Source: a virus
Length of the DNA stretch: 18,533 nt
Virus genome (UHGV): UHGV-2195102
Direction: 5' to 3' (one strand)
Below the pieces are notes generated by a model. The model did no database searches. It was not told the origin of the DNA and saw nothing but the letters and a program-made list of their open reading frames with translations. The translations under genes were made by a program, and so were the position numbers. Shown here in pieces: positions 1 through 9,524 of the stretch. Position 1 is the stretch's first letter. Every line of letters starts with the position of its first letter.

Positions 1-516
1 CCAGCCGTTCGGCGGGTAAAATGCCTGCCAGAACGGGTCATCCCAGCGCAGCACCAGACCATGCAGCGCCAGATGGCTCCTGCGGGTATGGCTGTCGTTG
101 ATGCCGGTATACATCCAGTACGGCCTGTCGTCGACGTTTTCCATCTGTTCCGCCCAACGACCGGCGCTGTAGAGTACGGACATATTGGTGCGAAAGATGG
201 TATCGAGCCGCCACGGACTGCCCTGCTGAATGGTGACCGGCTCACCCGTTACCGGGTCAGTCGTGTCACGTGGTCCCCACCATCCCTTACGCTTCAGCAC
301 CGGCTCCAGCTCCTGCCGGAACCAGCGATCGGTTTTTCCTTCATCGACAGCCTGCTGCAGTGCCCCGCGAATATCTTCCAGGATATCCAGGCGGGTCACT
401 TTAGCAACGGTAAAGGCGCGGGCATGGGCCTCCTGCCACATTTCTTCCCAGTCCCAGGTAATCTGATACCCTTTGGACTTCAGGTAGTTGATTGCCCGCT
501 TCGGGGGAAGCGTCAT
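1..516 (-). CDS. Mu F-like head morphogenesis protein, N-terminal ~172 aa (gene continues past window start)
   Basis: Hand translation of minus strand from ATG 516..514 gives MTLPPKRAINYLKSKGYQITWDWEEMWQEAHARAFTVAKVTRLDILEDIRGALQQAVDEGKTDRWFRQELEPVLKRKGWWGP..., open to position 1. Lies directly downstream of the portal gene as in the Mu late operon. Not in the ORF track because no stop occurs in the window. Confidence 0.65.
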   Translation of the reverse strand, partial: MTLPPKRAINYLKSKGYQITWDWEEMWQEAHARAFTVAKVTRLDILEDIRGALQQAVDEGKTDRWFRQELEPVLKRKGWWGPRDTTDPVTGEPVTIQQGSPWRLDTIFRTNMSVLYSAGRWAEQMENVDDRPYWMYTGINDSHTRRSHLALHGLVLRWDDPFWQAFYPPNGW

Positions 517-529
517 GCAGTACGCCAGT

Positions 530-2026
530 TCAGCCGTTGTCACGCTCATGCAGACGCCCCCAGATATTTGTCACAAAGAGAATGCGGGCCAGCCGCTCCT
601 GCAGATCGTCCGTGTTCATCTGAGGGTAGAGCTCCGCCAGTTCGCCCAGCAGCTCAGACGGGTTAACCCCATTTTCGACCCGCCTGAACAGAGGTGCCAG
701 GACGGGTTCCAGCGTGCCATTTAACGCGCCTCCGTTCATCAGAATGTCCAGCGCGTCGTCAAGCTGCTGCTGAGCCTGAATATCAGCATCAATCGCCTCG
801 GCAAATGACAGCGGCAGCATGTTATTCTGGCGTTCCGACGGTGGTGTCTCGTCAATATCGCCGTCCTGCAGTTGGTACTCACGCCTGAAGTACTGCGGGG
901 TCAGACGCAGACCCGCCCGGGTGAGTTTTTCGTCGCGGGTGGCACGGGTGTCATCAATGGCCTCCTGTTCCCACATGGCCCAGACCGGACACGGCACATC
1001 GCCGAAGTTCAGGGTGACCACCGTTCTGATGACCTGATTCACTGCCGCCTGAATGATGTCCGCATCCGCATCGCGGATATCAGCCGTTACCTCCAGCCCG
1101 GCCTGTGCAGAGGCCTTGTTACTGTTCGCTTCCGTGGTCTGATTCTGACCGAGTAATGCAATGGAGATCTCACTGCGTGACAGTGTGATCAGCTCGCGAA
1201 ATACCTCGCTGCTGTCTGCCTTGCCATCCGCTGCCCTGAGCTCAATACTGCTGTCATCGGGGATGGCGGCCACCGCGTCCTCCACCATCTGCTCCATGGA
1301 GTCCAGCAGTTTTTCAATCTCTGCATCATTTGCGCCCCTCGGGTGCTTACCGATCACCCACGGGGAGCCAAACTTTTCGGCAAAGCGGAGCCAGAATTTC
1401 ATCCCGCCTTTCTTGAAGGCGACCGGCCAGAAGCACATGGACAGGTCCGGGAAACCGTAAGGATTGTCATACGAGGCATCCTGTGCCGGCACCACGAATT
1501 TTGACGGTGACAGCAGCTCACCCTCCACACCCGCATCACGCGCCCGGAAGCGCAGGCAGTTGTCCGTATCAAACTGAAACCACTCAGGCGGTTTGCCGAC
1601 AATATCCGTCACCGCCCACGACCTGACCGAACGGCCCCACATGATTTCACAGGGCTGATACCCGTAGAGCACGGCATCGCTCATTTCACCGATGATGCGG
1701 GACAGATCCAGATCGTCGAGCATGTCGCGGATGAAACGGAAGACCCGGGCAGAGGCGTGACCACGCTCCAGTCCACGCTCCAGCGATTTGAGCGCTGCTT
1801 TACGTCTGCGGATACAGCCCCCGACCAGCGGGTCGGTGCGCAGTTCGCGGTAGATATGGATATCCCGTCCCTGAGCCTTGAGAATGGGATCAGGATTGGG
1901 CAGATACATGCCCAGTCCGTAAAAGTCGATCGCGCGGCTGCGGGAGGCAATCTGCGCGGTCAGTGATTTCTGAGGCTCAGAAAAAGCAACAAATTCATCG
2001 GGTGAAACCCAGATACCCCTCGCCAT
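530..2026 (-). CDS. phage portal protein (Mu gp29-like)
   Basis: 498-aa ORF immediately downstream of the large terminase with a 1-nt TGATG stop/start overlap; size and position match Mu gp29-type portals. Confidence 0.8.
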   Translation of the reverse strand: MARGIWVSPDEFVAFSEPQKSLTAQIASRSRAIDFYGLGMYLPNPDPILKAQGRDIHIYRELRTDPLVGGCIRRRKAALKSLERGLERGHASARVFRFIRDMLDDLDLSRIIGEMSDAVLYGYQPCEIMWGRSVRSWAVTDIVGKPPEWFQFDTDNCLRFRARDAGVEGELLSPSKFVVPAQDASYDNPYGFPDLSMCFWPVAFKKGGMKFWLRFAEKFGSPWVIGKHPRGANDAEIEKLLDSMEQMVEDAVAAIPDDSSIELRAADGKADSSEVFRELITLSRSEISIALLGQNQTTEANSNKASAQAGLEVTADIRDADADIIQAAVNQVIRTVVTLNFGDVPCPVWAMWEQEAIDDTRATRDEKLTRAGLRLTPQYFRREYQLQDGDIDETPPSERQNNMLPLSFAEAIDADIQAQQQLDDALDILMNGGALNGTLEPVLAPLFRRVENGVNPSELLGELAELYPQMNTDDLQERLARILFVTNIWGRLHERDNG

Positions 2027-3621
2027 CAGAATCCCTCCAGCATACGGGCCGCCTGACGACGACGGCGTGAGCTTGCCTTCACCGACCCTTTGTTAATTTC
2101 ACGGCTGGCGAAATACGCCAGCGCCAGTGCGATGGCTGAATCCCCGTGGCGTTTACCACCGTCAGCCTTTGCTTTTGAGCGTTGCTCCGGTACGCGGGGG
2201 ACACCGTTCACCACCTGAACGGCCCGCAGGTCATCCAGTGTGTCTTCATCCTTTGGTAAGTCCACCAGGTTACCGTCTTCCAGTGCAGCTTTGACCGGAG
2301 GCATATGCTCCCGGTACCAGCCTTCGGTTGGCATCACCTGCTGAACCCGGCTGGAGCCGTAGCGCTGCATGGCGTATTCAGCCAGATAGGCACCATTACC
2401 ACGGGCATCAAACGCTGCACCCAGCAGACCGGGCAGGCCATCCATCAGATACCAGGTGATTTGCTCCTGCTGTCTGAACGGCACGTTACGCAGCTCCAGT
2501 ACGAATGGCACGCGTCGTACCAGGTTCTTCTCCTGCAGCAGGGGATAGTCCACCGACAAATCACCGCTACGGCCAAAGTCGCGCCCCAGGAAAGAGCGGG
2601 CATCAGTGGGGAGTGCCTCCAGCAAGGGTTTCAGATACTCATCAAGCCAGTCCTGCGTCTCGCGGAAGCGAACCTCATCAGACAGCAGTTCATAACCTTC
2701 CTTGCAGGTCAGACGCAATACCGGCGTATCAGCGGACATGCGGGACTCTATCAGGGCACGGGACAGCCAGGCACCGCCACCGTTGGCCGGAATACAGTCA
2801 AGCTCTTCGGATACGCCGGCACCGTAGAATTTGTACACCGATGCCATCCAGGCCTGCTCGGATGCCTCCGACCATTCCTTCCCGGTGCGCAGACAGACGC
2901 GCCGGAACAGCCCCTCAGATACGGCTTCCCGGAAAGTGATGCGATGTATGCTGCCTCCCTGACGTCCGGCACGGATATCCCCGATAAGCGTATTGAACGG
3001 ATTGTCGTCACCGTCATGGGTGGAGATAACGCGTACCTTTCCCCCCCAGATAAGCATCGCCAGCGCCGCTTTCAGCAGTTCGTCCAGTTGCTCATGGAAC
3101 GCCGCTTCGTCGATAACAATAATACCCTGACGGCCACGCAGGTTAGACGGGCGGCTGGAGAGCGCAACAATACGAAAGCCGGAGTCAGGAAATTTGATGG
3201 TGTAAGTCTTGATGTGTTTGTCGTCGTCGTCCTCTTCCCAGAATCCTTCTTCAATTTCACTGGCCGCATAGTTGAATGCCCGTGCCCACATCGCACACGC
3301 CTGAATGTATTCGACGGTCATGTCCTGGTTATAAGCGATGTAATACACATTCATCCCGCCTGCTGGCGCAGAAGAGGCGGCGGTCAGTACGTTATCGGAT
3401 GCCTCAGCCCATGTAATACCGGTACGACGGCTCTTTTCTATCACCTTAAGCGGAGAGGTGTCTGCCACCCAGCGCTGCTGGTAAGGCAACAGAACGGGAG
3501 GGGCATCCAGCGCCGAGGTATCAGGCAAAACGGGAGCAAGGTTATTCCTCCCGTCCATGGGACTCATCCCTTCGGGGCCGCCGCCAGCGGCGTTTAAAAT
3601 CACTCCGGATGATTTTGTCAT
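2026..3621 (-). CDS. terminase large subunit (Mu gp28-like)
   Basis: 531-aa ORF between the gp27-like gene and the portal; ATGA overlap with upstream gene at 3618-3621; acidic patches (FWEEDDDDKH) and size typical of Mu-type TerL. Confidence 0.8.
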   Translation of the reverse strand: MTKSSGVILNAAGGGPEGMSPMDGRNNLAPVLPDTSALDAPPVLLPYQQRWVADTSPLKVIEKSRRTGITWAEASDNVLTAASSAPAGGMNVYYIAYNQDMTVEYIQACAMWARAFNYAASEIEEGFWEEDDDDKHIKTYTIKFPDSGFRIVALSSRPSNLRGRQGIIVIDEAAFHEQLDELLKAALAMLIWGGKVRVISTHDGDDNPFNTLIGDIRAGRQGGSIHRITFREAVSEGLFRRVCLRTGKEWSEASEQAWMASVYKFYGAGVSEELDCIPANGGGAWLSRALIESRMSADTPVLRLTCKEGYELLSDEVRFRETQDWLDEYLKPLLEALPTDARSFLGRDFGRSGDLSVDYPLLQEKNLVRRVPFVLELRNVPFRQQEQITWYLMDGLPGLLGAAFDARGNGAYLAEYAMQRYGSSRVQQVMPTEGWYREHMPPVKAALEDGNLVDLPKDEDTLDDLRAVQVVNGVPRVPEQRSKAKADGGKRHGDSAIALALAYFASREINKGSVKASSRRRRQAARMLEGF

Positions 3622-4163
3622 GTGGCAATCCCCAGAATCTCGCGACGAAGCGCCTGTACTGCGTCGCTTGACAGTCCCCCCTTACGGGCAATTTTCTCGG
3701 CGTTGCTGGCTGCCTGCTGCGCTCTGGCCCGTACTTCAGACTGGAACTTTTTGAGGTTGACGGACGCGCGGGACAGCGTAGCCACATTCTTCGCCACCTT
3801 CGACAGCAGGGCCACGCGTTCTTTAGGATCGACTTCGCCTTCTTCCGCCTCCTGCAACTGGACAATACTCTCGAACAGCTCGGTCTGAATAAGGGCTATC
3901 ACAGCCTCCGAACGCGCATCCTGATCGTCTGCTGCGCCTTCGGTCAGCATGCGGGCCGCTTCTGTTGCCGCACGGATAGCACCATAGCGGCGCTCAATCT
4001 TCTGTCCATAGCGATGGATAGCGGATTTGCTGATGACGTACCCCCGCTCACGCAGCAGGGACTCCAGCTCGTTATACCCGCTGAAGCCGGATTCAGTCAG
4101 CGCCCGTTCAAGCCAGCGGCGCACGTCTTCCGGCAGCTTTTCTATTGTGCTGCGTCTGGCCAT
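3618..4163 (-). CDS. Mu gp27-like protein (DUF3486-type, putative small terminase/DNA-binding subunit)
   Basis: 181-aa ORF beginning MARRSTIEKLPEDVRRWLERALTESGFSGYNELESLL..., directly upstream of TerL and translationally coupled to it, as for Mu gp27. Confidence 0.65.
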   Translation of the reverse strand: MARRSTIEKLPEDVRRWLERALTESGFSGYNELESLLRERGYVISKSAIHRYGQKIERRYGAIRAATEAARMLTEGAADDQDARSEAVIALIQTELFESIVQLQEAEEGEVDPKERVALLSKVAKNVATLSRASVNLKKFQSEVRARAQQAASNAEKIARKGGLSSDAVQALRREILGIAT

Positions 4164-4474
4164 TATTCACTCCAGTACTTTTCCGGGCGGGCAATACCCG
4201 GACCACATTCCACGGTGTATTCCACCAGGTCTACGCCGAGGCGGGTCAGGTCAGCAAACCAGTCGCCAGAAGGTTTTTTCTCCAGATCAACCATTTTACG
4301 GTCAGCCAGATAATCCAGTTTGCGGCGCAGTTCCAGCGGTGTGGTGTCCGGGTAGATGGCACGGGACACATCCAGCAGCAGCGTCTCGCTGGCGGTGTAA
4401 GGGCGGGTCTTGTTCAGGGCAACCAGCAGACTCCAGCGCAGGGATTCGCGGCGTACCCGGGTAATATCGACCAT
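4163..4474 (-). CDS. Mu gp26-like conserved hypothetical protein
   Basis: 103-aa ORF in the gp25-gp26-gp27 position of the Mu late operon; start/stop overlaps with both neighbours. Confidence 0.55.
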   Translation of the reverse strand: MVDITRVRRESLRWSLLVALNKTRPYTASETLLLDVSRAIYPDTTPLELRRKLDYLADRKMVDLEKKPSGDWFADLTRLGVDLVEYTVECGPGIARPEKYWSE

Positions 4475-4800
4475 TATTGACCTCCGGTATTGCGGTACTG
4501 CTGTACCACTTCCAGTTTGTTATAAAGCGCGTCCAGTTTGGCCTCAATGACTGTCTGGCCACGGATATAATCCTCTCGACGGACATAATTCAGCGGTAAA
4601 TCCGCTTTAAATCGCATAAATTCTTTTTCCAGCTCGCCCCAGTTGGAGGCGGATTGTTGCAGGGCCTGTTCAAGGGAGGCGAATCGTGCCGCCTGGCGTT
4701 CTTCTGTTTTACTGAACAACCATTTGGCGAGCCCTCCCACAAACCCCATGAAGGTGAGCAGAAAACTCACCACCGTCCAGAATTCAACCTGCAGTGTCAT
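4474..4800 (-). CDS. small membrane protein, Mu gp25-like (DUF2730-type; candidate releasin)
   Basis: 108-aa ORF with N-terminal TM segment (FWTVVSFLLTFMGFVGGLAKWLF) and charged C-terminal domain, immediately after the spanin genes as Mu gp25 is. Confidence 0.55.
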   Translation of the reverse strand: MTLQVEFWTVVSFLLTFMGFVGGLAKWLFSKTEERQAARFASLEQALQQSASNWGELEKEFMRFKADLPLNYVRREDYIRGQTVIEAKLDALYNKLEVVQQYRNTGGQ

Positions 4801-5447
4801 TTCTGTAATCCTTCCCGTTCATCCAGTAACGCGTTTATCTGGTTCCGCCAGCGACGACATTGTCCTGCGTTGTCGATGATGTTGGCGAGAACGTCACGCT
4901 GGGAGACACCCGAATCGCGTAACCGGGTGTCAGTGGTTTCAGGTTGCCCGGTCGCTGTGCCAGAGCGGGTGCCAGCGGCGGCAACTGAGTCTGAATGACC
5001 GGTGTCGACGGATGCGTTGTCATATCCGAGTGCGGCGTTGTACTGACGCACGAAACCGCGAGTAAACACGCACTCAATGGGATGGCTCTTACCTTTTTCA
5101 TCAATCCAGCGCTGTGTGACATCGTTAATTTGCCCCTGTAGTTGTTTATTCCGGCTCTCCAGTTGAGCAATCTGCTCAAGATAACCGGCTTCAGCCCGCT
5201 GCCCGGCGGCCACCTGCTCCTGATACCGTCTGGCCCAGGCCCGCAGCGCAGCATTCTCAAGCGTTGCCTGCTCCGTTTTGTACGCGTCAAATGCTGACTG
5301 CAACTGACTGAGCGCGGTATCACCGTCACGCTTTGCAGAGTCATGACCACTTCTGTATCCCATGGCATACAGGCCGACCAGAAAGGCATTGATAAGAATG
5401 GCCAGCAGAATGCCGCGCCACGGCAGCTTTTTAATCAGATGCCACAC
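4797..5447 (-). CDS. i-spanin (Rz-like inner-membrane spanin component)
   Basis: Likely start is GTG at 5447..5445 preceded by GGAGG 8 nt upstream (the ORF track extends to 5549). N-terminal TM (WRGILLAILINAFLVGLYAMGY) then long coiled-coil-like periplasmic domain (LQSAFDAYKTEQATLENAALRAWARRYQEQ...LESRNKQLQGQ). Overlaps the end of the endolysin gene. Confidence 0.7.
   Translation of the reverse strand: MWHLIKKLPWRGILLAILINAFLVGLYAMGYRSGHDSAKRDGDTALSQLQSAFDAYKTEQATLENAALRAWARRYQEQVAAGQRAEAGYLEQIAQLESRNKQLQGQINDVTQRWIDEKGKSHPIECVFTRGFVRQYNAALGYDNASVDTGHSDSVAAAGTRSGTATGQPETTDTRLRDSGVSQRDVLANIIDNAGQCRRWRNQINALLDEREGLQK
4835..5101 (-). CDS. o-spanin (Rz1-like outer-membrane lipoprotein), embedded in +1 frame of the i-spanin gene
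   Basis: ATG at 5101..5099 confirmed in sequence. Protein MKKVRAIPLSACLLAVSCVSTTPHSD...QLPPLAPALAQRPGNLKPLTPGY... has a signal peptide with lipobox-like Cys (LSAC/AVSC) and is proline-rich, lying wholly inside the i-spanin ORF. Confidence 0.65.
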   Translation of the reverse strand: MKKVRAIPLSACLLAVSCVSTTPHSDMTTHPSTPVIQTQLPPLAPALAQRPGNLKPLTPGYAIRVSPSVTFSPTSSTTQDNVVAGGTR

Positions 5448-6171
5448 AACTGCTGCCTCCCCATGTGAGATATCGCGGTGCCAGTTCGCGCAGGATGCGC
5501 TGCGGATAATGGCGGTTCTCCCGCCAGCTGGCCGCATTGCGTCCGGCATTCACCGTGGCGACATGTCCGAACCAGCGGGTGCTGTCCAGACCTTTCTGTG
5601 ATGCAAGCCGCCTGTCCCGTTGTACCCAGCCCAGACCACCGTTATAGCCCGACAGTGTCATGGCCATACGCTCGCAGTCACTGGCGGCGCTGACACGCTG
5701 CCACAGCCAGCGGTCATAGCTGACCAGCGCCCGGATAGCCCATGCCGGATTAAACGGCTCACGACTGCTCAGCATCGGTATCAACTGGCTTATCCAGTCG
5801 GCAGTGGCAGGCATGAACTGCGCCAGTCCCTGAGCGCCAGCCGGCGAGATCGCATCAGGTCGCCAGCCGCTTTCCTGATGCAGTTGCGCGGCGAAATCGG
5901 CCACCGGCGCAGACAGTCCCCATTCAAGCCGGGCATTACGGATCACATCATCGCGATACTGCAGCGCAGCCTGCGGAGGTTGTGCTGCGCATGCCTGGCT
6001 GAAAAAGCCGCCACACCAGAGCAACATTGCGACAAAGAATACCCATGCCATATGAACCAGAAAGGTCCCGGCGCGGACTGACAGGCGTTCGGTTCTGATG
6101 AAGACCCGAAAGGCTTCGAAAGCCAGTTTCAGGGACATGCATACAATCCAGGTGATCTGCGGCCAGTTCAT
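5431..6171 (-). CDS. endolysin, lytic transglycosylase (SLT domain) with N-terminal membrane anchor (SAR-like)
   Basis: 246-aa ORF containing the SLT catalytic motif LHQESGWRPDAISPAGAQGLAQFMPATA. Hydrophobic N-terminus (MAWVFFVAMLLWCGGFFSQACAAQ). Start is uncertain between ATG 6171 and ATG 6051. Confidence 0.8.
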   Translation of the reverse strand: MNWPQITWIVCMSLKLAFEAFRVFIRTERLSVRAGTFLVHMAWVFFVAMLLWCGGFFSQACAAQPPQAALQYRDDVIRNARLEWGLSAPVADFAAQLHQESGWRPDAISPAGAQGLAQFMPATADWISQLIPMLSSREPFNPAWAIRALVSYDRWLWQRVSAASDCERMAMTLSGYNGGLGWVQRDRRLASQKGLDSTRWFGHVATVNAGRNAASWRENRHYPQRILRELAPRYLTWGGSSCVASD

Positions 6172-6173
6172 GA

Positions 6174-6524
6174 TTAAAGCCCCATCGCAACAGCCAGGCA
6201 GACCGCTGCAACAATCAGTACACGGCGGATTAACGCAGCAGAAAACACCAGGTGAAGGCCGGTCTGTACCGGGAAACGCCCTTCAGCCATCAGCCTGTCG
6301 TCATGTTTCAGGTACTGACCGGGACGGGCTTTGGGGAAGAGCGAACGGTCAAGCCAGTAACCCAGCACTGCTGCCAGCGTGATGAGTGCCAGCTTGTAGA
6401 TCACAACAGGCAGCTGCTGTGGTGAGACCAGAGCGATGGTGCCCAGCAACAGCACTGAGGTCAGCAGCCAGCCGCTGAGGCGAGGTTTTTTAACAGGGGG
6501 AATGAATTTTTTCAGGTTTTTCAT
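6174..6524 (-). CDS. putative holin-like membrane protein (about 3 TM segments), first gene of late operon
   Basis: ATG at 6524..6522 with GAGGA about 8 nt upstream; the ORF track start at 6572 is probably too long. Protein MKNLKKFIPPVKKPRLSGWLLTSVLLLGTIALV... has three hydrophobic helices; sits immediately upstream of the endolysin. Confidence 0.5.
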   Translation of the reverse strand: MKNLKKFIPPVKKPRLSGWLLTSVLLLGTIALVSPQQLPVVIYKLALITLAAVLGYWLDRSLFPKARPGQYLKHDDRLMAEGRFPVQTGLHLVFSAALIRRVLIVAAVCLAVAMGL

Positions 6525-6654
6525 GTGTGTATCCTCGTTTGGTGGAGACAGCATCACAAATACAGGGCGCAAAGGATTTTAAAGCGCGTTAAGAGAGCCG
6601 GGGATACGGGATGTGCAGGATAAACGATGAATTATTCACAGAGGAGAATACGAT

Positions 6655-7131
6655 ATGACGCACACACTGAATCCGGTCATCACTGTCACTGTGTCCGGTC
6701 CTGTGGGCAGCGGTAAAAGTTACGTACTGGCGCGGATAGAAGAGATGGTGAAACAGGAACTCGGAAACAGCGTCATTGTCGATGCTGCTGACGTGGAGAA
6801 TGAGCGCCGTATGAATGGCGAAGATCTGACGACCTGGCAGAAGCCACGGGGTGGCACAGTGATCAGGCTAGAGGAATACACGGGACAGGGCCTGTTGTCA
6901 TACGGCGAGGAGCGTATCTGTCGGACGAATGAGCTGCTGGATGTTATATGCCCCACGGGCCGGCAACCCTGGATACTGCCCGATGCACTGCATGCCACCA
7001 TTGCGGCACTGATGACAGTTTACGATCAGGAGCTGCTCATGAAGGAGTTACGTAAACTCACCGGTCAGCCAACAGAATGTTGTTCGTCTCCGAAGTACGG
7101 CAAACAGGAAAACGCCCCGGATAATCCTTAA
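6655..7131 (+). CDS. small P-loop NTPase-like protein (158 aa), accessory gene of unknown function
   Basis: Strong RBS GAGGAG 6640-6645 before ATG 6655. Walker A motif VSGPVGSGKSY near the N-terminus, followed by hydrophobic-Asp stretch VIVDAADVE. Opposite strand to the late operon. Confidence 0.6.
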   Translation: MTHTLNPVITVTVSGPVGSGKSYVLARIEEMVKQELGNSVIVDAADVENERRMNGEDLTTWQKPRGGTVIRLEEYTGQGLLSYGEERICRTNELLDVICPTGRQPWILPDALHATIAALMTVYDQELLMKELRKLTGQPTECCSSPKYGKQENAPDNP

Positions 7132-7150
7132 GATACCTCCTGAACAGAAA

Positions 7151-7166
7151 CAGCCCTGAAGGGCTG
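7151..7166 (-). terminator. GC-rich hairpin CAGCCC-TGAA-GGGCTG between convergent genes; likely intrinsic terminator for the minus-strand cassette
   Basis: Perfect 6-bp stem with 4-nt loop at 7151-7166, 3 nt past the TAG stop (7169-7171) of the 196-aa ORF. On the minus strand it is followed by TTTCTGTT; on the plus strand it is followed by an A-run, so termination for the P-loop gene is less clear. Confidence 0.45.
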
Positions 7167-7168
7167 CA

Positions 7169-7756
7169 CTAAAAAAAGAAGTGTATTATTGCCCAAACAG
7201 CTATAACGATGATTCCCAGCCCAAGAGCCGATTCTAACTTATCTTTGGCAGTCATTTTTACTGTTGTAGCGGGCGCAGGTAAGTCTTGCTGCTGTGGATT
7301 TTCTGTTAGTTGTTTACGAGAAGAAACATCGCCCCTATTAGTTTGCTTCATGTTGATTACAGATGCGTTATGGGCATTATCAGCAGCAATTGACTGAAGT
7401 TTTACAAAAGTTTTTGAATCTGTTTTAGCCAGAAGTAACCTATTTCCCGTAAACATTGCCTTAAAAGTGATAGTTTTTTTCGTCTTGTCCGCCGCACCAA
7501 GCAAACCTCCAATGACCAACCCTGCACCACCAAAGATTAATCCACCAAGCAAACCTGCGCCTGCCGCCTTACCTATACGACTTTCCTCTTCACTATCCGC
7601 AAGTTCAATCGATAAAAGCTCTTCTTTCAGATTTAATACAATATTTTCAGGAAAGCCTTGTTTTGGTTTTTTGGCAAACACGATGGTACCGAACCCCATG
7701 CTTGCCCACCCTTTAGGAAAACTTCCTGCGATAACCTGAATCCCTGCCATGTTCAT
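7169..7756 (-). CDS. glycine-zipper membrane protein (about 195 aa), unknown function
   Basis: Start region reads GTG-ATG-AAC-ATG; AGGTGA lies upstream of the ATGs at 7756 and 7750. Central GxxxG-rich segment GAGLLGGLIFGGAGLVIGGLLGA and C-terminal hydrophobic tail LGLGIIVIAVWAIIHFFF. Noticeably AT-rich compared with flanking phage genes. Confidence 0.6.
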   Translation of the reverse strand: MNMAGIQVIAGSFPKGWASMGFGTIVFAKKPKQGFPENIVLNLKEELLSIELADSEEESRIGKAAGAGLLGGLIFGGAGLVIGGLLGAADKTKKTITFKAMFTGNRLLLAKTDSKTFVKLQSIAADNAHNASVINMKQTNRGDVSSRKQLTENPQQQDLPAPATTVKMTAKDKLESALGLGIIVIAVWAIIHFFF

Positions 7757-7840
7757 CACCTTTTACATTAAAATTTCAGAACGCAGCATGATGCCGCCTT
7801 TGTCTTTTTTCTGATCCCATGGTAATTCAGCTGTTATTTT

Positions 7841-8827
7841 CTATTTAAGAATAAAACGGTATTTACTGTCAGGAGTGCTTTGCTGATCAAGTAGCAGTGA
7901 ACGACATGGAGCAGTCAAAACCCGAGCATAACTACCATCAGGGCTTATGTTAATGTAACAAACCTTGCCCTTAACACTATAATTTTCGGGGACGGATGCC
8001 TTTGCTGATACAGTAAATTTAAGGGTATGCCAGCCCGTTTTTTGCTTGTAGCTTGAAACCGAATGGAAATCATCTGAGTACTTATTTAACCCTGGAAACA
8101 TGCTGCGCAGTGCGGGGATGGAATCTTCTATTATTTTATCGTTGGTTTTAATGTTAAAAACGCTGGTTTCAGTAGAAGCTACTGCTTTGGCATTTCCCCA
8201 TTTACCAGCGAACACAATCATTCCCACGAAAAATATTGCTACAAGAACTAACACTCCCCCCAACACTACTACATGAGGCTTCCGGCTTCTGGTTGGTACA
8301 GTTGCGACTGATTTTGCACCGCTTTCCGATGGAGGTGATAGAGTTTTACTCTCATCACGAATATTCAGCAGATCATCAAAATAACCAAACACAGCCTGCA
8401 ACTGCTCTTTGTCTAGGCCTTTAAGATGGGTTGTACCGAAATGCTTCAGACAGTATCTGTCACGGTCAAGACGATACCCAGGGTCAGTAAGCGCCATTAT
8501 TTTGCTGACCAGAAGATTACAGTCCTTCATATTCTGGATCTGTTGTGCATATCTCTGAAGGATCTCAACCGCACCATGATAATCAGCCGCAGTCATTTCA
8601 TTAACTGTTTTGGTATTAAGTTTCGTGTGGATCGTCATCCATAGCTCGCGCTTACTTTCCCCCAGATCAACCAATTCATCCATCAATCTGTGTAAATCGC
8701 GTTTTTGCAGCAACGAAATTGGTTGCTGGGCCGAAGGAAGTATGTCAGCAGAATAGTTATGAATGGTAACATCACCGCTGACAACGTTACCCACATCCCC
8801 GTTAACTGTTTGCTTCTCTTTACTCAT
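7841..8827 (-). CDS. single-pass membrane protein (328 aa), unknown function; translationally coupled to the repressor gene
   Basis: ATGA overlap with the repressor stop at 8824-8827 confirmed in sequence. Soluble N-terminal ~185 aa, TM segment HVVVLGGVLVLVAIFFVGMIVFAG, C-terminal ~120 aa domain. AT-rich. No family recognised. Confidence 0.6.
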   Translation of the reverse strand: MSKEKQTVNGDVGNVVSGDVTIHNYSADILPSAQQPISLLQKRDLHRLMDELVDLGESKRELWMTIHTKLNTKTVNEMTAADYHGAVEILQRYAQQIQNMKDCNLLVSKIMALTDPGYRLDRDRYCLKHFGTTHLKGLDKEQLQAVFGYFDDLLNIRDESKTLSPPSESGAKSVATVPTRSRKPHVVVLGGVLVLVAIFFVGMIVFAGKWGNAKAVASTETSVFNIKTNDKIIEDSIPALRSMFPGLNKYSDDFHSVSSYKQKTGWHTLKFTVSAKASVPENYSVKGKVCYINISPDGSYARVLTAPCRSLLLDQQSTPDSKYRFILK

Positions 8828-9249
8828 CTTCTCTTGGTATTTTTGTTCATTATTCCACCTGTTCCTATGGTTACGTTACCTTTGATAACATTCCCCAGAA
8901 CATCTCCATGAATAACCTGTTCCGCCCGTTCTCTGGAGGAGCCAGTAGTCAAGGCCGACAAAACTGAACCTTTGACCTGTAATGGTGCCTGCCGGTAGTG
9001 CTGCAGTAACTCCATTTCATCACGTGATAAAGTTATACCTGATGACTCCCCGGTAAGAATGAACTGTACATTGGCCCCAATTCTTGCAAAGGCTGCAAGT
9101 AACTCACCTCCGGGAACAGCAACCCCTCGTTCATATTTCCCCCACATTTCTCTTGAAACGCCACAAAGGGCTGCTACTTCAGCCTGCTTGAGTGATAACC
9201 GCGAACGCTCAGCTTTGAACCGCGACGCGCAAAGAGAATCAAAATTCAC
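8824..9249 (-). CDS. XRE-family HTH transcriptional repressor (prophage c-type repressor)
   Basis: HTH segment LSLKQAEVAALCGVSREMWGKYERG. Preferred start GTG 9249..9247 with GAGG 5 nt upstream; the ORF track start ATG 9285 would place the plus-strand promoter and palindrome inside the coding region. Divergent from the early operon. Confidence 0.7.
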   Translation of the reverse strand: MNFDSLCASRFKAERSRLSLKQAEVAALCGVSREMWGKYERGVAVPGGELLAAFARIGANVQFILTGESSGITLSRDEMELLQHYRQAPLQVKGSVLSALTTGSSRERAEQVIHGDVLGNVIKGNVTIGTGGIMNKNTKRR

Positions 9250-9259
9250 ATAAACCTCA

Positions 9260-9288
9260 TTGACAATGAGAACAATAGTTCTCATAAT
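9260..9288 (+). promoter_or_regulatory. putative early promoter: -35 TTGACA (9260-9265), 17-nt spacer, -10 CATAAT (9283-9288), with operator palindrome GAGAAC-N4-GTTCTC (9268-9283) in the spacer
   Basis: Read directly from sequence: consensus -35, 17-bp spacing, near-consensus -10, about 45 nt upstream of the ner-like start; the perfect 6-bp inverted repeat overlaps the spacer and -10. Confidence 0.5.
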
Positions 9289-9335: not shown

Positions 9336-9524
9336 ATGACTTCCGAACAAGTTAAAAATCTCTTCCGTCAGCGTGGTATCACGTTTACCCGCTGGGCCGA
9401 AGAACACGGCTACAGCCGCAATGAGGTCTATCGTGTTCTCAATGGACAGACCAAAGCTCGTTACGGCAAAGCCCATGAAATTGCCGTAAAACTGGGATTA
9501 AAACCCACGTCAAATGCGGCATAA
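9336..9524 (+). CDS. small HTH DNA-binding protein in the Ner/Cro position (62 aa)
   Basis: AGGAG 9325-9329 before ATG 9336. First gene of the rightward early operon, divergent from the repressor. Sequence MTSEQVKNLFRQRGITFTRWAEEHGYSRNEVYRVLNGQTKARYGKAHEIAVKLGL is consistent with a small HTH regulator. Confidence 0.6.
   Translation: MTSEQVKNLFRQRGITFTRWAEEHGYSRNEVYRVLNGQTKARYGKAHEIAVKLGLKPTSNAA

What the first reader, a model, noticed from the sequence alone, without database searches (positions are those of the whole stretch)
8765..8905. Duplicated GDV-GNV-x-G-x-VTI peptide motif on both sides of the repressor/cassette gene junction
The repressor C-terminus reads ...VIHGDVLGNVIKGNVTIGTGG... 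and the next protein begins MSKEKQTVNGDVGNVVSGDVTIHNYS.... The two copies are about 100 bp apart and straddle the ATGA junction; the DNA is similar but diverged. This could be the footprint of an ancestral fusion or duplication, a shared interaction or oligomerisation tag, or a common recognition site (for example for a protease) linking repressor state to the downstream protein.
Basis: seen in the sequence. Interest (0 to 1): 0.5.

Follow-up and report, generated by a model that had tools for sequence, protein, structure and literature searches.

The report
Repressor and membrane partner share tag
A prophage repressor ends with, and the membrane protein encoded right after it begins with, the same short glycine/asparagine/valine-rich peptide; this pair is conserved and co-evolves across many temperate phages, which points to an undescribed physical link between the lysogeny switch and a membrane protein.

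Summary
The 153-aa XRE repressor (8824-9285, minus strand) ends in QVIHGDVLGNVIKGNVTIG. The 328-aa protein that overlaps it by ATGA (7841-8827) starts with QTVNGDVGNVVSGDVTIH. In each protein the motif is the best-conserved segment. Across about 230 phage and prophage loci the motif comes in many sequence classes, and the repressor tail matches the head of its own downstream gene (permutation p about 5e-6). Synonymous sites are randomised, so the match is kept at protein level. A motif-first scan of viral contigs found one class almost only at ORF termini; 43 of 47 heads had a matching tail upstream. The partner is a membrane-anchored relative of the flagellar regulator Flk. One Mu-like prophage has a single fused gene (HTH, motif-like linker, Flk-like domain) at the repressor position. 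AlphaFold2 leaves both motifs disordered. Best reading: a homotypic beta-strand docking tag that joins the repressor to a detachable regulatory subunit. Its gene arrangement and composition resemble amyloid signalling motif pairs, but the partner domains are new. The function (induction sensor, scaffold or effector) is inferred, not shown. I found no description of it in the searchable literature.

The parts
8848..8919 (-). Tail motif of the repressor, residues 123-146: QVIHGDVLGNVIKGNVTIGTGGIM
   Evidence: It is 83-96% conserved where the rest of the repressor is 41-79%. pLDDT is below 50 in the AF2 model.
8827..8847 (-). Basic C-terminal end of the repressor (NKNTKRR). A K/R-rich end follows the tail motif in nearly all tail-bearing homologues.
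8824..8827 (-). ATGA overlap: repressor stop codon TGA and partner start codon ATG, an arrangement consistent with translational coupling
   Evidence: Gaps of -4 to +35 nt in related loci.
8750..8812 (-). Head motif of the partner, residues 6-26: QTVNGDVGNVVSGDVTIHNYS
   Evidence: It is 84-100% conserved where the rest of the partner is 49-81%. pLDDT is mostly below 50 (mean 45-50 over residues 1-26).
8824..9285 (-). XRE/CI-type prophage repressor gene (153 aa): HTH residues 22-79 (9049-9222), helical hairpin residues 87-115 (8941-9027), then the disordered tail
   Evidence: Pfam HTH_31/HTH_3. AF2 model. Divergent from the ner-like gene and the Mu-type early operon.
7841..8827 (-). Partner gene (328 aa): head motif, Flk-like helical domain, one TM helix, periplasmic domain
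   Evidence: PHROG 10002/5825. NCBIfam Flk NF007987, E 2.9e-12. AF2 model.
8348..8719 (-). Flk-like cytoplasmic helical domain of the partner, residues 37-160
8204..8275 (-). Transmembrane helix of the partner, residues 185-208 (basic residues on the N-terminal side, so N-terminus inside)
7844..8161 (-). Periplasmic alpha/beta domain of the partner, residues 223-328, with two conserved cysteines
   Evidence: No significant fold match.
7169..7759 (-). Third gene on the same strand (196 aa, two hydrophobic segments, no motif). Probably the last gene of the repressor operon.
   Evidence: (PHROG 12025). Terminator-like hairpin at 7150-7167.
9260..9288 (+). Sigma-70-like promoter (11 of 12 matches) facing the ner-like gene and overlapping the repressor start. 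Candidate early promoter and operator region.
   Evidence: a consensus match only.
9336..9524 (+). ner-like small HTH gene, first gene of the divergent early (transposase) operon. It fixes the identity of 8824-9285 as the immunity repressor.

Best explanation
The two motifs are a co-evolving pair of terminal, intrinsically disordered beta-strand tags. Through them the C-terminal tail of the prophage's XRE-type repressor docks on the N-terminal head of the protein made from the next, translationally coupled gene. That protein is a Flk-like regulatory module, usually anchored in the inner membrane and here carrying a periplasmic domain.

Together the two proteins form a two-piece repressor: a DNA-binding subunit plus a detachable regulatory or sensor subunit. 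In sister repressors this place is taken by a covalently attached C-terminal domain such as the S24 autocleavage domain.

The two tags are kept similar, not merely complementary, and the shared positions are mostly G, N, Q, V and I. I therefore infer that they pair by stacking like on like (in-register beta-arches), as amyloid signalling motifs do.

Shown here: the motif pair, its conservation, its covariation, its terminal position, the partner's domain make-up and the natural fusion. Inferred: the physical contact, its beta-stacking geometry, and that the partner modulates repressor availability or oligomerisation in response to a membrane or envelope signal. That would give these RecA-independent Mu-like prophages an induction or control route.
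For: (1) Significance in the window.
(2) Each motif is the best-conserved part of its protein.
(3) Covariation: 116 loci were found through the repressor. After dereplication to 48 pairs, the sum of cognate tail/head scores beat all 100000 permutations. Among 19 distinct motif-bearing pairs the cognate head ranks first in 13 and third or better in all, p = 5e-6. Examples are HRFALGDYHEN/HRIALGDYYEH, GGVQVGYVGGSV/GGVQVGKVDGDV, HGGQFSTGTINNY/HGGQFGQVINNY and GQVSAENIYNI/GQVAANNIYNI.
(4) Selection acts at protein level: 90 of 196 identical residues share a codon against 84.3 expected, and nucleotide identity is 55%.
(5) A motif-first scan of IMG/VR for NR[VI]AGRD[FY] gave 156 matches: 96 at ORF N-termini, 51 at C-termini and 9 elsewhere, most of them ORF start mis-calls or contig-end truncations. 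43 of 47 distinct head ORFs have an upstream ORF that ends in the matching tail.
(6) The pair is present in the type phage BcepMu (gp17/gp18), in Pseudomonas phage Ps59 and in Ralstonia phage RsoM1USA. It occurs in both transposable and integrase-type prophages.
(7) Rosetta-stone fusion: the 262-aa protein P0385/P0397 is an XRE HTH, a G/V/N/H-rich linker and a Flk-like domain. It sits at the repressor position of a Mu-like prophage with no separate partner gene.
(8) Phage-type Flk-like proteins almost all start with such a motif. Chromosomal Flk does not.
(9) Both motifs are disordered in monomer models. Their composition bias (N, H, G, Q, V, I enriched; L, P, C depleted) matches that reported for bacterial amyloid signalling motifs (Dyrka et al., bioRxiv 2020.01.06.895854, section 9).
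(10) In the same HTH family the tail is replaced by an S24 peptidase domain in some members (P0068, P0069, P0078).
Against: There is no direct evidence of binding, and AF2 multimer could not be run.

The partner is membrane-anchored whereas the repressor must sit on DNA, and the fused version has no TM segment. A permanent 1:1 complex is therefore hard to picture.

About four tail-bearing lineages have no matching head in the next ORF or anywhere in the fetched flanks (L022/23, L026/101, L017, L019).

Some partners carry a head-like motif internally while their repressor has a helical C-terminus without a tail (L004-8, L014-20, L032/35). The pairing is therefore frequent but not obligatory.

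At aligned charged positions, like charges (32) outnumber opposite charges (7). The window pair also differs by a one-residue indel. Neither favours simple in-register stacking.

The partner's function is unknown: there are no PADLOC hits and no significant PDB fold match for the whole domain.
Confidence: 0.55

Rival explanations
1. True amyloid (prion-like) signalling. One side is clustered by a signal, either repressor tails on operator DNA or partner heads in the membrane. It adopts a cross-beta fold and templates the other side in an open-ended, irreversible way. The outcome is either activation of the membrane protein as an effector (superinfection exclusion, abortive infection or help with lysis) or trapping of the repressor in aggregates (induction).
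For: The genomic signature is the one used to discover fungal and bacterial amyloid signalling motifs: the same motif of about 20 aa at the C-terminus of one protein and the N-terminus of the adjacent gene's product. The composition bias is the same. Both motifs are disordered in monomers. Several partners have two motif units while the repressor has one, as in HET-S/NWD2 and BASS1/6. An all-in-one fusion exists, as for NLR/effector pairs. A working amyloid signalling pair (Bab/Agp, BASS11) exists in an E. coli prophage island.
Against: Neither partner belongs to the classes found so far in such systems (NLR, STAND or TGP sensors; Bell, HeLo, TIR or CHAT effectors). No amyloid-propensity program or fibril test could be run. 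The two proteins are co-transcribed and apparently coupled, so a constitutively oligomeric repressor would fire the switch all the time. Like charges are aligned. PADLOC gives no defence-family hit.
Confidence: 0.2
2. The tail is mainly a self-association element that lets repressor dimers form higher oligomers for cooperative operator binding. The partner's head is a mimic that competes with tail-tail contacts, making it a membrane-tethered dominant-negative antirepressor.
For: Some tail-bearing repressors lack a head-bearing neighbour, so the tail may have a partner-independent role. The Flk-like unit is also the C-terminal domain of Rha/ORF6C antirepressor-like proteins. Mimicry would explain why the sequences are similar rather than complementary.
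Against: An antirepressor made from the same transcript in fixed ratio with its target is hard to reconcile with stable lysogeny. The natural fusion shows that the Flk-like domain is compatible with a working repressor in cis.
Confidence: 0.12
3. Both peptides are recognition sites for one third party, such as a host protease, chaperone or membrane-targeting factor. This would link the fate of the two proteins without direct contact between them.
For: Both motifs are terminal and disordered, as degrons often are. The C-terminus of the Mu repressor is known to control its ClpXP degradation (established knowledge, not tested here).
Against: Many motif classes coexist in one host species; for example, E. 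coli prophages carry both GDV-GNV-x-G-x-VTI and NRVAGRDF classes. Each tail matches its own head better than other heads. A common host receptor would not predict this.
Confidence: 0.06
4. The similarity is a neutral leftover of a junction duplication or gene fission, or simply chance similarity of low-complexity sequence.
For: A fused form exists, so fission or fusion did occur in this family. The sequence is G/N/V-rich.
Against: No shuffle reached the observed score. The motifs are the most conserved parts of both proteins. Cognate-specific matching persists although synonymous sites are randomised. The motif is restricted to termini in a motif-first scan.
Confidence: 0.02

Closest known systems
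Amyloid signalling motif pairs (fungal HET-S/NWD2 and other FASS; bacterial BASS1-10 with Bell/NLR; E. coli Bab/Agp with BASS11)
   Same: One short (about 20-25 aa) motif sits at the C-terminus of one protein and the N-terminus of the product of the adjacent gene. The motif is enriched in G, N, Q, V and I and depleted in P and L. Many sequence classes each match within their own pair. One side sometimes has two pseudo-repeats. All-in-one fused architectures exist. Bab/Agp shows that such a pair can work in an E. coli prophage region.
   Different: Here the C-terminal motif is on a transcription factor (a CI-like XRE repressor) and the N-terminal one is on an Flk-like or other small membrane protein. 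No NLR, STAND or TGP sensor is present, and no Bell, HeLo, TIR or CHAT effector. The hosts are unicellular Proteobacteria and the elements are temperate phages. Amyloid formation is untested. No sequence match to a named BASS family was established.
Flk (Fluke/RflH), flagellar export-switch regulator of Salmonella and E. coli
   Same: The partner's cytoplasmic helical domain is homologous to the N-terminal domain of Flk (NF007987, E 2.9e-12 to 4e-17; 25% identity over residues 28-152 with E. coli K-12 Flk). Most phage relatives also share Flk's C-terminal membrane anchor.
   Different: Scores are far below the equivalog cut-off (47-62 against 353 bits). Flk has a P/G/Q-rich N-terminus without the beta motif and two copies of the domain. 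The window protein has a periplasmic domain after its TM helix. No link to flagella is implied.
CI/LexA-type repressors with a C-terminal S24 autocleavage and dimerisation domain
   Same: Same HTH family and the same genomic role. Some homologues of this repressor carry PF00717 in place of the tail (P0068, P0069, P0078). The logic of a DNA-binding domain plus a regulatory domain that decides induction is shared.
   Different: The regulatory domain here would be a separate polypeptide held by a peptide tag. There is no peptidase domain, so no RecA-dependent self-cleavage is expected.
BcepMu gp17/gp18 and related Bcepmuvirus or B3-like immunity regions
   Same: This is the same gene pair. BcepMu gp17 (annotated cro/cI-type repressor) ends in QVFHGSVGQAVKVEGNL, and gp18 (annotated membrane protein) starts with QEFNKPVGQAIQAGEANI. 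The window prophage has the BcepMu-like gene order.
   Different: The records annotate only 'transcriptional regulator' and 'membrane protein'. I found no paper that mentions the shared motif.
Membrane-tethered regulators of DNA-binding proteins (anti-sigma factors such as RseA with sigma-E; ToxR/CadC-type membrane-bound transcription factors); a functional analogy recalled from knowledge, not tested
   Same: A single-pass, N-in membrane protein with a periplasmic domain is co-transcribed with a DNA-binding protein that it is inferred to bind through its cytoplasmic N-terminus.
   Different: There is no sequence or fold relationship. Contact here would be through a short homotypic peptide pair rather than a folded binding domain.
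Rha / ORF6N-ORF6C antirepressor-like phage proteins
   Same: The first Flk-like unit matches the ORF6C-type C-terminal domain found after Phage_pRha domains (P0357, P0373, P0381, P0382). PHROG profiles annotated anti-repressor give weak hits to related partners (L001, L010, L011), not to the window protein itself.
   Different: The partner has no Rha/KilA-N DNA-binding domain. The hits are weak and cover only about 60 residues.

Membership tests
Amyloid signalling motif pair (FASS/BASS type) | The same short motif at the C-terminus of one protein and the N-terminus of the product of the adjacent gene | tested here: met
   The motif is terminal in 147 of 156 motif-first matches, and 43 of 47 heads have a matching upstream tail.
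Amyloid signalling motif pair (FASS/BASS type) | Length of about 20-25 aa with G/N/Q/V/I enrichment and P/L depletion | tested here: met
   Cores are 18-24 aa. N is enriched 2.8x, G 2.2x, Q 1.8x, V and I 1.4x; L is at 0.16x and P at 0.32x.
Amyloid signalling motif pair (FASS/BASS type) | One partner is an oligomerising sensor (NLR, STAND or TGP) and the other a cell-death or immune effector (HeLo, Bell, TIR, CHAT and similar) | tested here: not met
   The partners are an XRE HTH repressor and an Flk-like membrane protein. No defence-family hit above noise was found.
Amyloid signalling motif pair (FASS/BASS type) | The motif forms cross-beta fibrils or prion-like foci, and the sensor-side motif templates the effector-side motif | not testable with these tools
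   The only observation is that both motifs are disordered in AF2 monomer models. Multimer prediction and amyloid predictors were not available.
CI/XRE-type prophage immunity repressor | HTH_3/HTH_31 DNA-binding domain, with the gene divergent from the early lytic operon | tested here: met
   Pfam HTH_31 at 4.7e-7. The gene is divergent from ner, wHTH, DUF3102, transposase and the MuB-like gene.
CI/LexA-type repressor | C-terminal S24 peptidase domain for RecA-stimulated self-cleavage | tested here: not met
   The window protein has no PF00717 hit. The domain is present only in distant homologues P0068, P0069 and P0078.
Flk (NCBIfam NF007987 equivalog) | Full-length match above the curated cut-off (353 bits), with two Flk domains and a C-terminal tail anchor | tested here: not met
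   The score is 46.6 bits and covers only profile positions 14-143. The protein has one domain, and its TM helix is followed by a periplasmic domain.
Flk-like domain superfamily (precomputed Pfam PF27202; PHROG 10002/5825) | Homology of the cytoplasmic helical domain | tested here: met
   (173 representative clusters in 1.84 billion proteins).
Pentapeptide-repeat or bactofilin-type beta-helix | Many tandem repeats that form a stable solenoid, with a Pfam pentapeptide or bactofilin match | tested here: not met
   There are only 3-4 G-[DN]-V-x-x units. No Pfam hit was found even at E up to 5 for the partner. AF2 gives no fold.
Type II toxin-antitoxin pair with an XRE antitoxin | The downstream or upstream partner belongs to a toxin family, and the antitoxin neutralises it through its C-terminal region | tested here: inconclusive
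   No toxin family hit was found in Pfam, NCBIfam or PADLOC. Toxicity was not testable. The gene's position and the divergent ner/transposase operon identify it as the phage repressor.

The most novel reading that the evidence does not exclude
Lysogeny in BcepMu-like and many integrase-type prophages is controlled by a prion-like switch. A signal sensed at the membrane makes the partner's N-terminal motifs assemble, and they then template the repressor's C-terminal tails into a cross-beta assembly. This removes the repressor irreversibly and induces the phage without RecA. In the reverse direction, repressor clustering on incoming homoimmune DNA would fire the membrane protein as an exclusion or abortive-infection effector. 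Either way, this would be the first amyloid signalling pair with a transcription factor as one partner.
Probability: 0.2. Interest if true: 0.92.

Novelty: new variant of a known kind. Interest (0 to 1): 0.75.

Why it matters
BcepMu-like and related transposable prophages are common in E. coli, Salmonella, Serratia, Pectobacterium, Pseudomonas, Burkholderia and Ralstonia. The region around this gene pair matches 573 of 5426 complete E. coli genomes, and most of the pair is present in 127 of them. Their short repressors lack the LexA-like cleavage domain, and how they are induced is largely unknown. For one Mu-like prophage, ECA41, known inducers fail (PMC13566846); I could not verify that ECA41 belongs to this family.

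A conserved, co-evolving peptide link between the repressor and a membrane protein gives a concrete, testable candidate for that missing control route. It would also extend the paired-terminal-motif principle, so far tied to NLR-type immune receptors and death effectors, to transcription control. Finally, the many mutually specific motif classes would be a ready-made set of orthogonal short docking tags.

Tried and rejected
- A composition-only detector of tail and head motifs gave a weak, unreliable 2x2 association (p = 0.04) because heads with few glycines are missed. I did not use it.
- The search for related loci with the diverse partner alignment failed because no stretch was conserved enough. 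The afdb50 fold library was not available.
- PADLOC gave only noise for the partner; the repressor's weak hits (RmrA, E about 5e-5) cover only its generic HTH region. Pfam at E up to 5 gave nothing for the partner.
- I looked for a second motif copy in loci whose repressor lacks a tail and found none above noise. I also looked for a displaced head in loci whose tail-bearing repressor lacks a head-bearing neighbour. None was convincing; L017 has a weak candidate ORF that starts ...GNHNRVAGRDIV about 1.1 kb downstream.
- A possible internal repeat (GATVLHVNS / GATVNQIHN) in the linker of the fused protein is not significant: 1180 of 5000 shuffles reach its score.
- I tested for HET-s-like charge complementarity between tail and head and did not find it (32 like-charge against 7 opposite-charge positions).
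- A DNA- or RNA-level explanation (direct repeat, gene conversion) is rejected. Nucleotide identity is 55% and codon sharing is at the random expectation. Direct repeats also cannot pair as RNA.
- Literature searches by concept and by motif string found no description.
- I could not confirm that the essential XRE gene ECA3708 of prophage ECA41 is a member of this family.
Full report
**What is in the window.**
On the minus strand, ORF 8824-9285 encodes a 153-aa XRE-family protein (Pfam HTH_31 4.7e-7). It ends ...AEQVIHGDVLGNVIKGNVTIGTGGIMNKNTKRR. ORF 7841-8827 overlaps it by ATGA and encodes a 328-aa protein that starts MSKEKQTVNGDVGNVVSGDVTIHNYS.

The surrounding element is a BcepMu-like transposable prophage of E. 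coli. The repressor is divergent from a ner-like gene, a winged-HTH gene, a DUF3102 gene, an rve transposase and a MuB-like ATPase. Downstream, on the repressor's strand, lie a third small membrane protein, then the holin, the SLT endolysin and the head genes. The 1.7-kb region is 100% identical in many E. coli genomes, including CE10 and IAI39. It matches 573 of 5426 complete genomes, 127 of them over at least 80% of its length.

**Is the similarity more than chance?**
The local alignment of the repressor's last 45 residues with the partner's first 60 scores 60. None of 20000 composition-preserving shuffles reached this (mean 22, maximum 58). Shuffling only within the G/N/V-rich cores also never reached the observed 56 (maximum 49). 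The other 22 adjacent same-strand gene pairs of the prophage score 33 or less.

The head (residues 6-24) is 84-100% identical in 16 of 17 homologues, whose remainder is 49-81% identical (68% in the most distant one, remainder 45%). The tail (residues 123-146) is 83-96% identical in repressors whose remainder is only 41-79% identical. This includes repressors with a clearly different HTH domain. Each motif is therefore the most constrained part of its protein.

**Covariation.**
The repressor family has a constant plan: HTH, a helical hairpin (DE.ELL..YR.AP...K.A.LAAL), a short linker, a variable G/N/Q/V-rich tail and a K/R-rich end. I fetched 38 genomic and 78 viral loci through the repressor and compared each tail with the N-terminus of the next ORF.

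The motif comes in many classes, and the head follows the tail class by class:

| Locus | Repressor tail | Partner head |
|---|---|---|
| L010 | SVSGKGNRVAGRDFNENKK | NSTGGQNRVAGRDFNENKI |
| L080 | GHRFALGDYHEN | EHRIALGDYYEH |
| L096 | AGGVQVGYVGGSV | SGGVQVGKVDGDV |
| L100 | HGGQFSTGTINNY | HGGQFGQVINNY |
| L070 | FNGNIDGQVSAENIYNI | FNHTVGQVAANNIYNI |
| L001 | QIFNGDISGQFAGNQIIN | QEFNGTAQGQFSSRDIIN |

After dereplication to 48 pairs, the summed cognate score exceeded all 100000 permutations. Within the 19 distinct motif-bearing pairs the cognate head ranks first in 13 and third or better in all (p = 5e-6). Mean cognate score is 49.7 against 25.2 for non-cognate pairs.

The match is kept at protein level. 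Nucleotide identity over the aligned codons is 55%. Identical residues share a codon 90 times out of 196, against 84.3 expected from local codon usage. Recent gene conversion, a DNA repeat or an RNA element therefore cannot explain it. Independent drift after one ancient duplication cannot explain it either, because that would not make cognates more alike than non-cognates.

**A motif-first test.**
To avoid sampling through either protein, I scanned IMG/VR for DNA that encodes NR[VI]AGRD[FY]. Of 156 matches, 96 lie within 25 residues of an ORF start and 51 within 15 residues of an ORF end. The other 9 are mostly start-codon mis-calls or truncated contigs. All tails sit on XRE-type proteins with several different HTH variants.

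The heads sit on at least four partner architectures:
- an Flk-like domain plus a tail anchor;
- a zinc ribbon plus two TM helices;
- a small helical protein plus a TM helix;
- others.

For 43 of 47 distinct head ORFs, the upstream ORF ends in the matching tail.

The pair is also present in phage BcepMu itself: gp17 has QVFHGSVGQAVKVEGNL and gp18 has QEFNKPVGQAIQAGEANI. Pseudomonas phage Ps59 and Ralstonia phage RsoM1USA carry it too. It also occurs in integrase-type prophages of E. coli and Klebsiella, where the order is repressor, partner, small lipoprotein-like gene, integrase.

**What the partner is.**
AF2 gives three confident parts:
- a helical cytoplasmic domain (residues 31-162, pLDDT above 90);
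- a TM helix (residues 187-207);
- an alpha/beta C-terminal domain (about residues 220-328), with two conserved cysteines, consistent with a periplasmic location.

The helical domain is homologous to the N-terminal domain of the flagellar regulator Flk (NF007987, E 2.9e-12, and up to 4e-17 for relatives). These scores are far below the equivalog cut-off. Identity with E. coli K-12 Flk is 25% over residues 28-152. [quoted passage not shown]

An exhaustive HMMER search of 1.84 billion representatives found only 173 clusters in this superfamily. The phage-type members almost all begin with a G/N/Q/V-rich motif of one class or another. Chromosomal Flk proteins begin with a proline/glycine-rich segment and have no such motif.

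**The fusion.**
One representative, P0385, has a near-identical second copy, P0397, from an independent assembly. It is a 262-aa single chain with three parts:
- an XRE HTH that is 47% identical to the window repressor;
- a G/V/N/H-rich linker of about 45 residues;
- an Flk-like domain (hhalign probability 96.8%).

It sits at the repressor position of a Mu-like prophage. It is divergent from an HTH_35 (ner-type) gene, MuA, MuB and Gam, and it is followed directly by an amidase and late genes, with no separate partner gene.

This is Rosetta-stone evidence that the repressor and the Flk-like protein work as one unit. It also shows that the Flk-like domain is compatible with a functioning repressor. 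It parallels the all-in-one architectures known for amyloid-signalling systems.

**How it most likely works.**
Shown here:
- two terminal peptides, disordered in monomer models (repressor 119-153 below 50; partner head mean 45-50 over 1-26);
- the peptides are conserved, class-matched between neighbours and terminal;
- a partner that is usually membrane-anchored;
- a natural fusion.

Inferred: the tail and head bind each other. The two are kept alike rather than merely complementary, and 129 of the 196 shared positions are G, N, V, Q or I. The simplest geometry is therefore like-on-like beta stacking, which is the principle of amyloid signalling motifs. Those motifs have the same composition bias.

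The partner would be a detachable regulatory subunit of the repressor. In some homologues this place is taken by an S24 domain. It would tie repressor availability or oligomerisation to something sensed at the membrane or in the periplasm.

I commit to this two-piece-repressor docking model at about 0.55. A true open-ended amyloid switch is the main rival at about 0.2. A competitor or antirepressor model follows at about 0.12. A shared host recognition site gets about 0.06; it is disfavoured because several classes coexist in one host species and matching is cognate-specific. A neutral relic gets about 0.02.

**Caveats.**
- Nothing here shows binding.
- Membrane anchoring and DNA binding are hard to combine in a permanent complex, and the fused form lacks a TM segment.
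- A few tail-bearing repressors have no head-bearing neighbour (L022/23, L026/101, L017, L019).
- Some partners carry an internal motif next to tail-less repressors.
- Like charges are aligned more often than opposite ones (32 against 7).
- The window pair differs by a one-residue indel.

**Comparison with what is known, and novelty.**
The arrangement meets the genomic and compositional criteria of FASS/BASS amyloid signalling pairs, including the E. coli Bab/Agp system. It fails the criterion on partner types (NLR or TGP sensor; Bell, HeLo or TIR effector), and fibril formation is untested. I therefore do not file it as a member of that family.

The repressor is an ordinary XRE/CI-type repressor without an S24 domain. 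The partner is an Flk-like protein but not Flk. The searchable literature and the phage records describe these genes only as 'transcriptional regulator' and 'membrane protein'. No paper contains the motif strings or the concept.

A Tn-seq study reports that the XRE regulator of the Mu-like prophage ECA41 is essential, that its neighbours are dispensable, and that the prophage resists known inducers (PMC13566846). This fits a regulatory, non-essential partner. However, I could not verify that ECA41 belongs to this family.

I rate the finding as a new variant of a known kind, namely paired terminal signalling motifs in adjacent genes, with new partner domains and a new biological setting. Interest is 0.75.

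Noticed in passing
L231:6001-6789 (also L230:838-1626); proteins P0385/P0397: A single-chain protein combines an XRE HTH, a G/V/N/H-rich linker and an Flk-like domain (262 aa, no TM). It sits at the repressor position of a Mu-like prophage that has no separate partner gene. It was seen in two independent assemblies.
   Followed up: yes
Proteins P0251-P0396; L229:3951-4946 (E. coli K-12 flk): The whole Flk-like superfamily has only 173 clusters among 1.84 billion representatives. Phage-type members start with a beta-motif of many classes. Chromosomal Flk starts with a P/G/Q-rich segment and has two copies of the domain.
   Followed up: partly
Proteins P0357, P0373, P0381, P0382: The first Flk-like unit also occurs as the C-terminal (ORF6C-like) domain after Phage_pRha domains. 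This links the partner's domain to antirepressor-like phage regulators.
   Followed up: partly
L066:3001-4520; L121, L122, L145 and many similar IMG/VR loci: An abundant integrase-type enterobacterial prophage carries repressor (134 aa, tail NRIAGRDYNETKGR), partner (216 aa), a 115-aa lipoprotein-like gene and an integrase. L066 has two consecutive tailed HTH genes before the partner, so three proteins share the tag.
   Followed up: partly
L118:2160-2942 (BcepMu gp18); L120:2214-2810 (Ps59 gp18); the 209-216-aa family (alignment A2): Several partners carry a second beta-unit after the head, while the repressor has one. Examples are gp18 ...GSIGSVAGRDIVNVNHG and Ps59 ...SISVTVGGDQAGNISLGGTQINIQ. 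This recalls the pseudo-repeats of HET-S and BASS effectors.
   Followed up: no
L004-L008, L014, L016, L018, L020, L032, L035, L112, L113: These repressors have a helical C-terminal domain (...RIDSVLKLVINH) and no tail. They are followed by membrane or soluble proteins that carry a head-like motif internally, after an N-terminal helix. No second motif copy was found in these loci.
   Followed up: partly
window 7169-7759 (-), 7150-7167 (-): The third gene on the repressor's strand encodes a 196-aa protein with a glycine-rich hydrophobic segment and a C-terminal hydrophobic tail (PHROG 12025, function unknown). A terminator-like hairpin follows it. It is missing from the close relatives L043 and L044.
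   Followed up: partly
window 6655-7131 (+): A convergent 158-aa ORF with a P-loop is annotated 'ABC transporter ATPase' in CE10. It has only weak AAA and defence-model hits. It may be a moron or a fragment lying between the immunity and lysis regions.
   Followed up: no
window 16465 (junction); L117:17777-18954: The E. coli CE10 copy of this prophage has an IS3-family insertion in the early region that the window lacks. Otherwise the two are 99.9% identical over 16.5 kb.
   Followed up: yes
window 9260-9288 (+): A strong sigma-70-like promoter match (TTGACA, 17-nt spacer, CATAAT) faces the ner-like gene and overlaps the repressor start codon. It is the likely early promoter and operator region.
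   Followed up: no
window 1-6572 (-): Gene order is BcepMu-like rather than Mu-like. Holin, SLT endolysin, small and large terminase-like genes, portal (DUF935) and head morphogenesis genes run leftwards from the immunity region, on the same strand as the repressor operon.
   Followed up: partly
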